In this document: positions 19,985 through 20,025 of the stretch, one piece after another
Layout of the letters: every line of letters begins with the position of its first letter
Position numbering within the stretch: position 1 is the stretch's first letter
Source: Campylobacterota bacterium
Lineage (GTDB): Bacteria > Campylobacterota > Campylobacteria > Campylobacterales > Sulfurovaceae
Length of the DNA stretch: 64,000 bases
Direction of reading: 5' to 3'
Assembly: GCA_034660455.1 (NCBI GenBank)
Contig: JAYEJF010000035.1
Span: forward strand, 16,436-80,435
The notes under the pieces: model-generated
What the model was told of the DNA's origin: nothing
Databases searched by the model: none
The model's input: the letters and a program-made list of their open reading frames with translations, nothing else
Position numbers and translations under genes: made by a program

Positions 19985-20016
19985 TTTTAAAGTCCAAAAA
20001 TTATATTAGAATTATT

Positions 20017-20025
20017 CCCCCCCCC
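20017..20025 (-). repeat. C9 (G9 on the operon strand) homopolymer in the promoter / 5-prime region of the six-gene operon; candidate phase-variation tract
   Basis: The sequence attattCCCCCCCCCaaatt can be counted directly. The tract lies 33-41 nt upstream of the ATG at 19984. On the minus strand it is immediately followed by AATAAT (20011-20016) and TATAAT (20000-20005). Confidence 0.9.

What the first reader, a model, noticed from the sequence alone, without database searches (positions are those of the whole stretch)
20000..20025. G9 homopolymer inside the core promoter of the giant operon: possible phase-variable ON/OFF or rheostat switch
Seen in the sequence:
- The only long G/C homopolymer I found in the window is C9 at 20017-20025, which is G9 on the operon strand.
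- It lies 33-41 nt upstream of the first ATG.
- It directly abuts the -10-like hexamers AATAAT (20011-20016) and TATAAT (20000-20005).
- The local context is otherwise almost pure A/T.

Established knowledge:
- In Campylobacter and Helicobacter, poly-G/C tracts of 8 or more slip during replication and drive phase variation of surface structures. Intergenic tracts can change promoter spacing.

Inference:
- Expression of this costly surface-polymer system may be stochastically switched.
Basis: partly seen in the sequence, partly recalled or inferred. Interest (0 to 1): 0.65.

Follow-up and report, generated by a model that had tools for sequence, protein, structure and literature searches.

The report
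Slippery poly-G run before polymer operon
A run of nine G's lies just upstream of an 18-kb operon for a poly-gamma-glutamate-like polymer in an uncultured brine sulfur bacterium of the order Campylobacterales; the same run is one G shorter or longer in otherwise identical DNA of a sister strain, so it is a credible but unproven random expression switch of a well-known kind.

Summary
**Observation:** confirmed. C9 at 20017-20025 is G9 on the operon strand. It is the only G/C run of 7 or more in the 64 kb. It lies 33-41 nt upstream of ATG 19984, which comparison with homologues supports as the true start.

**Setting:** the operon encodes an HK-like sensor, a double PgsC fusion and a PgsB-like ligase. 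The organism is a Campylobacterales MAG from brine, close to Sulfurovum and Sulfurimonas.

**New evidence for slippage:**
- A sister lineage (about 92% nucleotide identity) carries a G-block at the same spot.
- It reads G8-A-G4 in two assemblies and G9-A-G4 in a third.
- The third assembly is otherwise identical over 11,852 bp to one of the G8 assemblies.
- The 110-nt upstream block holding the tract travels with the operon, not with the neighbouring genes.

**Against, or untested:**
- Contigs from four brine samples all read G9.
- Raw reads and the whole genome could not be inspected.
- No transcription start site (TSS) data exist.
- The -10-like hexamers are no more frequent than in shuffled sequence. 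Three candidate promoters put the tract in the spacer, near -35, or in the 5' UTR.
- Spacing across the tract differs by 6-7 nt between the two lineages.
- More distant operon homologues have no tract.

**Verdict:** a probable hypermutable repeat and a plausible transcriptional phase or rheostat switch. It is a new member of a known kind. Interest is moderate.

The parts
20017..20025 (-). G9 homopolymer (C9 on the + strand): the candidate slippage tract
   Evidence: The homologous G-block in the sister lineage reads G8-A-G4 or G9-A-G4.
20011..20016 (-). AATAAT, a -10-like hexamer that abuts the tract (candidate promoter P2'). The tract would then occupy -13 to -21.
   Evidence: pairs it with TTAAAA at 17 nt (9 of 12 matches). 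It is identical in the sister lineage. Its function is not shown.
20000..20005 (-). TATAAT, a consensus -10 hexamer 11 nt downstream of the tract (candidate promoter P2). The tract would then occupy about -24 to -32.
   Evidence: Read from the sequence. It is identical in the sister lineage. It would leave only a leader of about 9 nt.
20034..20039 (-). TTAAAA, a -35-like hexamer 17 nt upstream of AATAAT, within an A-rich (UP-like) stretch
   Evidence: In the sister lineage it is not kept at the same distance.
20062..20067 (-). TATAAT, the distal -10-like hexamer (candidate promoter P1), preceded by a T-rich stretch ending in TG. The tract would then lie at about +31 to +39 of the 5' UTR.
   Evidence: TACAAT in the sister lineage. 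The homology block begins about 27 nt upstream of it.
19985..20094 (-). 110-nt upstream block shared with the sister lineage; beyond 20094 the two lineages have unrelated DNA
   Evidence: (the blastn alignment starts at window 20094).
17372..19984 (-). First gene: an 870-aa membrane sensor with a weak, degenerate histidine-kinase ATPase end
   Evidence: The N-terminus is conserved in homologues.
14160..17357 (-). 1065-aa double PgsC/CapC fusion protein
   Evidence: PF14102, 1.7e-38; TIGR04011.
6835..10944 (-). 1369-aa protein with a PgsB-like amide-ligase core
   Evidence: TIGR04012, 1e-55, residues 698-1070; below the equivalog cut-off.
1829..14172 (-). Remaining tightly packed or overlapping genes of the operon (796, 284, 1369 and 1650 aa)
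   Evidence: coordinates; gaps of -13 to 53 nt.

Best explanation
The G9 run is a slippage-prone simple-sequence repeat sitting in the promoter or leader of the operon for a poly-gamma-glutamate-like polymer.

During replication the run gains or loses a G. That changes the distance, and the rotational setting, between the A-rich upstream DNA and the -10 region that follows the run (AATAAT at 20016-20011, TATAAT at 20005-20000). Different cells in a population would then transcribe the 18-kb operon at different levels: on/off, or graded like a rheostat.

- **Shown:** the run exists, where it lies, that it moves with the operon, and that its length differs in a sister lineage.
- **Inferred:** that it lies inside the active promoter, and that its length changes expression.
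For: 1. The run is an uninterrupted G9 on the coding strand, 33-41 nt from the start codon. Its length is above the cut-off of 7 used for Campylobacter phasomes (PMC6321876). It equals the modal length of C. jejuni phase-variable tracts (PMC3401435).
2. Sister lineage: L086 (Logan) has G8-A-G4 and L088 (JGI) has G9-A-G4. They show 0 mismatches and this single 1-nt indel over 11,852 bp. A second JGI sample (L087) has G8. No other homopolymer in those 11.8-13.3 kb differs in length.
3. Between the two lineages the G-block has changed by 4-5 nt plus one substitution, while both flanking -10-like hexamers stay intact.
4. Homology between the lineages starts 110 nt upstream of the ATG, and the genes beyond differ: the IMPase (suhB-like) gene in the window, parAB and DUF6471 in the sister lineage. 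The tract therefore belongs to the operon's own control region.
5. It is the only G/C run of 7 or more in 64 kb, in DNA that is 15% G+C, with 0.0014 expected in the intergenic DNA.
6. A-rich blocks lie upstream of the tract and -10-like boxes downstream. This resembles the layout of the H. pylori sabA T-tract rheostat (PMC4081817).
7. The operon makes an exported or surface polymer. That is the typical cargo of contingency loci.
Against: 1. All four brine samples give G9 in their contigs. Minority lengths could not be seen, because only contigs are held and no reads.
2. The promoter is not mapped. Promoter-like hits are no more frequent than in shuffles. If the distal -10 (20067-20062) is the real one, the tract is transcribed and its length may not matter.
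3. The distance between the conserved blocks either side of the tract is 27 nt in the window and 33-34 nt in the sister lineage. No precise spacing is conserved.
4. The upstream block diverges about as fast as four-fold degenerate sites, 19% against 15%. There is thus no sign of selection on it, and one interruption in 13-14 positions is what neutral change would give.
5. The G8/G9 difference rests on assemblies, possibly of one read set at about 10x depth. A homopolymer error cannot be excluded.
6. More distant homologous operons have no such tract. Free-living relatives are reported to lack hypervariable G:C tracts (PMC2147049).
Confidence: 0.45

Rival explanations
1. The tract is hypermutable but without consequence. 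It really does slip, but it lies in a part of the leader or upstream DNA where length does not matter. One such case is a 5' UTR of roughly 70 nt made from the distal promoter at 20067-20062. It would then persist through mutational bias rather than selection.
For: - The upstream block evolves at about the neutral rate.
- Spacing across the tract is not conserved between the lineages.
- The distal -10, with its T-rich/TG upstream region, is conserved, and the homology block begins just upstream of it.
- In C. jejuni, G8 and G9 tracts mostly gain a G and G10 and G11 mostly lose one. This holds tracts near G9 without selection (PMC3401435).
- No stable RNA structure involves the tract (z-scores -0.2 to +0.6).
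Against: - It is the only long G/C run in 64 kb, and it sits exactly in front of the first gene of a large polymer operon.
- Both proximal -10-like hexamers next to it are intact in both lineages.
Confidence: 0.3
2. The tract is static. It is a fixed G9 that arose by chance or by descent, and the G8/G9 difference in the sister lineage is a sequencing or assembly error at a homopolymer.
For: - Four samples of the window's population all read G9.
- Seven of 100 shuffles of the window contain a G9/C9.
- The sister contig has a depth of only about 10.
- The Logan and JGI assemblies may derive from the same reads.
- Free-living relatives are said to lack hypervariable tracts.
Against: - In 11.8-13.3 kb compared among three assemblies, the tract is the only homopolymer whose length differs, although many A/T runs are present.
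- Two assemblers disagreeing on one read set would itself need a mixed population of reads.
- The G-block also differs between the lineages by 4-5 nt.
Confidence: 0.18
3. The tract acts at the RNA level. It is transcribed and works in the leader, for example as a Shine-Dalgarno-like decoy (GGGGG in the window, GGAGG in the sister lineage) or as a pause site.
For: - The sister lineage's G-block contains GGAGG.
- The real Shine-Dalgarno sequence is weak: GGA in the window, AGG in the sister lineage.
Against: - No start codon follows the tract at a usable distance.
- No Rfam match and no significant fold.
- No evidence that the tract is transcribed.
Confidence: 0.07

Closest known systems
Helicobacter pylori sabA promoter T-tract (rheostat-like repeat; PMC4081817)
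   Same: - Same phylum.
- An intergenic homopolymer just upstream of the core promoter.
- A-rich UP-like blocks further upstream.
- Length differs between close relatives.
- Proposed action: changing the axial alignment of upstream DNA and core promoter.
   Different: - The tract is poly-T of 9-18 nt rather than poly-G.
- In H. pylori the TSS, RNA-polymerase footprints and length-dependent output are measured. None of these is known here.
- The cargo is an adhesin, not a polymer-synthesis operon.
Neisseria meningitidis porA (poly-G) and opc/fetA (poly-C) promoter tracts between -35 and -10
   Same: - A G/C homopolymer of about 9-12 nt immediately upstream of a -10 box.
- A 1-nt change alters spacer length.
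- The window has TTAAAA-17 nt-AATAAT with the tract filling the spacer.
   Different: - The -35 match is weak, and it is not kept at that distance in the sister lineage.
- Campylobacterota promoters generally lack a conserved -35 (my own knowledge).
- No expression data exist here.
Campylobacter jejuni poly-G/C contingency loci (PMC3401435, PMC6321876)
   Same: - Same order-level group.
- G9 on the coding strand, which is the modal length.
- Associated with surface-polymer genes.
   Different: - In Campylobacter, 77% of tracts lie inside reading frames and act by frameshift. Only about 20% of gene groups have intergenic tracts.
- Here the tract is intergenic and is the only one seen in 64 kb.

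Membership tests
Repeat-mediated transcriptional phase variation (contingency locus) | An uninterrupted mononucleotide G/C repeat at or above the length known to slip (7-8 or more) | tested here: met
   G9 at 20017-20025. The cut-off of 7 or more is from PMC6321876.
Repeat-mediated transcriptional phase variation (contingency locus) | The repeat lies in the promoter or another regulatory element of the controlled gene, not in its reading frame | tested here: inconclusive
   The tract is intergenic, 33-41 nt upstream of the start codon and next to two -10-like hexamers. No TSS is known, promoter-like hits equal the shuffle expectation, and a distal promoter would place the tract in the 5' UTR.
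Repeat-mediated transcriptional phase variation (contingency locus) | Repeat number varies among otherwise identical cells, clones or samples | tested here: inconclusive
   Met in the sister lineage: G8 against G9 is the only difference in 11,852 bp. Not seen in the window's own lineage, where G9 appears in contigs of four samples. Raw reads were not available.
Repeat-mediated transcriptional phase variation (contingency locus) | Expression of the gene depends on repeat number, and switching is reversible at high frequency | not testable with these tools
   Needs reporter fusions or transcript counts. No RNA runs hold the stretch.
Repeat-mediated transcriptional phase variation (contingency locus) | A permissive host background: no MutS1/MutL mismatch repair and several such tracts in the genome (usual, not strictly defining) | not tested
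The literature says Epsilonproteobacteria lack MutL and MutH, but also that free-living members lack G:C tracts (PMC2147049).
porA-type spacer switch (tract between -35 and -10) | Recognisable -35 and -10 hexamers flank the tract, with a spacer near 17 nt that the tract sets | tested here: inconclusive
   The window has TTAAAA-17-AATAAT (9 of 12 matches). In the sister lineage the G-block is 4-5 nt longer and no -35-like hexamer sits at 16-18 nt.
sabA-type rheostat (tract between UP-like A-boxes and core promoter) | A-rich UP-like blocks upstream of the tract, whose phasing with the core promoter changes with tract length | tested here: inconclusive
   A-runs lie upstream of the tract (AAAAAA at 20037-20032 and AAAAA at 20084-20080). 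The distance to the -10 differs by 6-7 nt between the lineages. Binding and output are untested.

The most novel reading that the evidence does not exclude
A free-living, sulfur-oxidising Campylobacterales bacterium of brines and biofilms uses a poly-G contingency switch to hedge production of a poly-gamma-glutamate-like matrix polymer. The switch sits on a mobile operon cassette that carries its own promoter. This would show that repeat-driven phase variation is not confined to the host-associated Campylobacter and Helicobacter branch. It would also show that the switch can move horizontally together with the genes it controls.
Probability: 0.3. Interest if true: 0.55.

Novelty: new member of a known kind. 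Interest (0 to 1): 0.4.

Why it matters
Random on/off switching by slippery DNA repeats is textbook biology for pathogens that face immune systems and phages. It is hardly documented in free-living environmental bacteria.

If this tract really switches an 18-kb polymer operon, it would be an example of bet-hedging over an expensive biofilm or capsule material in a brine community. It would also give a simple handle (fixing the tract length) for studying a poly-gamma-glutamate-like synthase that has never been characterised.

If it does not switch anything, it is just a rare homopolymer.

Tried and rejected

**Read-level and RNA data**
- Read-level heterogeneity: only Logan contigs are held for runs X1-X6. 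They show G9 with no variants, and X6 does not cover the site.
- RNA runs for a TSS: none.

**Searches for more relatives of the promoter**
- Genome contigs with the sensor protein found nothing.
- Two DNA patterns in metagenome contigs and one in viral contigs found nothing.
- The 80 GTDB loci found with the PgsC fusion are at most 53% identical and carry no tract at the promoter. The G/C runs seen in the high-GC loci I inspected lie inside genes.

**RNA-level readings**
- Structured RNA or riboswitch: no Rfam match at E <= 1 and none in the whole window at gathering score. Folds are no better than shuffles.

**Other readings rejected on the sequence**
- Translational frameshift switch: no ORF on either strand crosses the tract, and stop codons precede ATG 19984.
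- Sigma-54 or sigma-28 promoter, or reiterative transcription from a -10 placed 7 nt before the tract: no GG-N10-GC motif is present, and the candidate hexamer TAAAAA lacks the -7 T and is not conserved.
- Control of the divergent IMPase (suhB-like) gene: its own TGnTACAAT box lies more than 120 nt away, and the tract does not travel with that gene.

**Provenance**
- Papers mentioning the sample accessions: none.

Full report
**What is there**

The + strand at 20017-20025 reads C9, flanked by AT-rich DNA. On the - strand this is G9. It lies 33-41 nt upstream of the ATG at 19984, which opens an 870-codon frame. A regex scan shows no other G or C run of 7 or more in the 64 kb; the next longest are C6 (three) and G6 (one).

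How unusual is the run?
- Dinucleotide-preserving shuffles give 0.08 G9/C9 runs per window, and 7 of 100 shuffles have at least one. In the window as a whole it is only mildly unusual.
- A zero-order model expects 0.0014 such runs in the 4.8 kb of intergenic DNA (31% G+C).
- The 110 nt around the tract are 15% G+C without it.

Logan contigs from four samples of one brine-metagenome study read through the tract with no difference and no gap. It is therefore not an assembly artefact.

**Which start codon**

The public gene call for this ORF begins at Met18 (853 aa). That would put the tract 84 nt upstream. The first 17 residues (MTVWLKYRYFFILFIKI) are nevertheless matched in homologues:
- MGWIRYRYLTLLIIKM in the 42%-identical homologue;
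- ..FKHIYFPLLVLKIM.. and ..FKHLYFPILLLKII.. in a Sulfurovum MAG and a Campylobacterota MAG.

**What the tract precedes**

The genes from 19984 down to at least 1829 are packed with overlaps or gaps of at most 53 nt.
- The first encodes a membrane sensor with a weak histidine-kinase ATPase end.
- The second encodes a 1065-aa protein with PgsC/CapC modules (PF14102, 1.7e-38).
- The fifth encodes a 1369-aa protein with a PgsB-like ligase core (TIGR04012, 1e-55).

'Surface-polymer system' is thus a fair description: a poly-gamma-glutamate-like synthase with unusual architecture.

**Who carries it**

The divergent neighbour encodes an inositol monophosphatase family (suhB-like) protein. Its best named relatives are from Sulfurovum (76%), Sulfurimonas (75%), Sulfurospirillaceae, Sulfuricurvum and Hydrogenimonas. 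The best GTDB hits to the PgsC fusion are Sulfurovum (53%), Campylobacterota MAGs and Sulfurimonas (51%). The organism is a Campylobacterales MAG from brine.

**Comparative evidence on the tract**

The sensor protein has one close relative at 89% identity. Its gene was found on three contigs:
- Logan SRR11747015 (L001/L086);
- JGI 3300020607 (L087);
- JGI 3300020608 (L002/L088).

At the position of the window's G9 these contigs carry a longer G-block. It reads G8-A-G4 in L086 and L087, and G9-A-G4 in L088.

L088 and L086 are identical over 11,852 bp except for this one G. L087 differs from L086 only by eight substitutions clustered in 27 bp inside another gene. No other homopolymer in these 11.8-13.3 kb differs in length. 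This is the pattern expected of a slippage-prone repeat. If the Logan and JGI assemblies come from one read set, it points to a mixed population within one sample.

Between the window and the sister lineage the G-block differs by 4-5 nt and one substitution. The two -10-like hexamers after it are unchanged.

**The tract belongs to the operon**

Nucleotide homology between the two lineages is 92.3% and starts at window 20094, 110 nt upstream of the ATG. It then runs through the operon. Upstream of that point the window has the IMPase (suhB-like) gene, while the sister lineage has parA, parB and a DUF6471 gene. A further relative whose IMPase (suhB-like) protein is 89% identical has MksBEF/Wadjet-like genes where the window has the operon. 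So the operon moves as a cassette together with its 110-nt upstream block and the tract.

**Limits of the promoter reading**

Three -10-like boxes are candidates.
- AATAAT (20016-20011) abuts the tract. The scan pairs it with TTAAAA at 17 nt (9 of 12 matches). The tract would fill the spacer, as in porA.
- TATAAT (20005-20000) lies 11 nt further on. The tract would cover about -24 to -32, but the leader would be only about 9 nt.
- TATAAT (20067-20062; TACAAT in the sister lineage) lies upstream and is preceded by a T-rich stretch ending in TG. From my own knowledge, this looks most like a Campylobacterota promoter. It would put the tract at about +31 to +39 of a leader of roughly 70 nt.

Several results stop short of choosing among them:
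- The scan finds 5 promoter-like sites in 600 nt, against 4.2 +/- 2.1 in shuffles. None of these matches is evidence by itself.
- The upstream block shows 19% mismatches plus 16 gap columns, against 15% divergence at four-fold degenerate sites of the sensor gene. Conservation cannot pick the functional elements.
- The distance from the conserved TTAGTy block to AATAAT is 27 nt in the window and 33 or 34 nt in the sister lineage. No precise spacing or helical phase is kept.
- No RNA run holds the stretch.
- No Rfam family matches.
- The leader does not fold better than shuffles.

**Wider context**

- The PhasomeIt study of Campylobacter uses G/C runs of 7 or more as its cut-off. It finds 77% of tracts inside ORFs, with intergenic tracts in 20% of gene groups (PMC6321876).
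- In C. jejuni the modal tract is G9. G8 and G9 mostly gain a G, and G10 and G11 mostly lose one (PMC3401435). A tract can therefore hover near G9 by mutational bias alone.
- The A. butzleri genome paper states that Epsilonproteobacteria lack MutL and MutH. It also states that A. butzleri, Sulfurimonas denitrificans and Wolinella succinogenes lack hypervariable G:C tracts (PMC2147049).
- Eight low-GC Campylobacterota loci with the homologous operon have no G/C run of 7 or more in about 90 kb. The 42%-identical homologue has no tract before its gene.
- The tract is therefore a feature of one genus-level clade, not of the operon family.
- The closest worked-out mechanism in the phylum is the sabA T-tract of H. 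pylori, which lies next to the core promoter. Its length changes the alignment of A-rich UP-like elements with the promoter and grades the output (PMC4081817).

**Verdict**

- That the tract is a real, length-unstable repeat is probable. I put it near 0.75, on the sister-lineage indel.
- That it switches or grades transcription of the operon is plausible but unshown (about 0.45).
- The main rivals are a slipping but inconsequential tract (0.3) and a static tract with an assembly error in the sister lineage (0.18).
- It is a new member of a known kind.
- The mildly novel points are the host (a free-living brine Campylobacterales), the cargo (a poly-gamma-glutamate-like synthase operon), and the fact that the tract travels with a mobile operon cassette.

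I could not count tracts genome-wide or check the mismatch-repair genes.

Noticed in passing
window 20111-20155 and 21389-21433: A 45-nt direct repeat (91% identical, with a 30-nt perfect core at 20116-20145 and 21394-21423) precedes two + strand genes. Each copy ends in a TGnTAyAAy box. Logan contigs break at it, and word depth there is about 5 times that of the flanks (121 against 24), so it has further copies in the metagenome. A relative's IMPase (suhB-like) locus lacks the repeat. That locus keeps only TGnTACAAT followed by 7 nt and the ATG, which suggests a leaderless mRNA for that gene.
   Followed up: partly
window 10971/10972; L086 12948-15340: The sister lineage has an extra 754-aa lipoprotein gene with a PGA_cap (CapA/PgsA-like) domain between the 273/284-aa gene and the PgsB-like gene. 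The window has a clean 2.4-kb absence at that point and no homologue anywhere in the 64 kb (tblastn).
   Followed up: partly
window 20094 and leftwards; L086 1-3823; L089 1-5916: The polymer operon sits in different genomic neighbourhoods in close relatives: next to the IMPase (suhB-like) gene in the window, and next to parA-parB-DUF6471 in the sister lineage. Another relative has MksBEF/Wadjet-like genes at the site beside that gene. The operon behaves as a movable cassette, and that site behaves as a variable locus.
   Followed up: partly
window 19933-19984: The public gene call for the sensor starts at Met18 (853 aa). The 17 residues upstream are conserved in homologues, so the 870-aa form starting at 19984 is likelier.
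   Followed up: yes
L003 1-60: In the 42%-identical homologue's contig, a C8 run follows directly after what looks like the 3' end of a tRNA gene (GGTTCGAATCC...CCA). It lies about 450 nt upstream of the operon. ARAGORN cannot call the truncated tRNA.
   Followed up: no
L087 6597-6623, compared with L086: Eight substitutions clustered in 27 bp, at the start of the 796-aa gene, are the only differences between two sister-lineage contigs over 13.3 kb. This looks like a small recombination patch or a micro-variant region.
   Followed up: no
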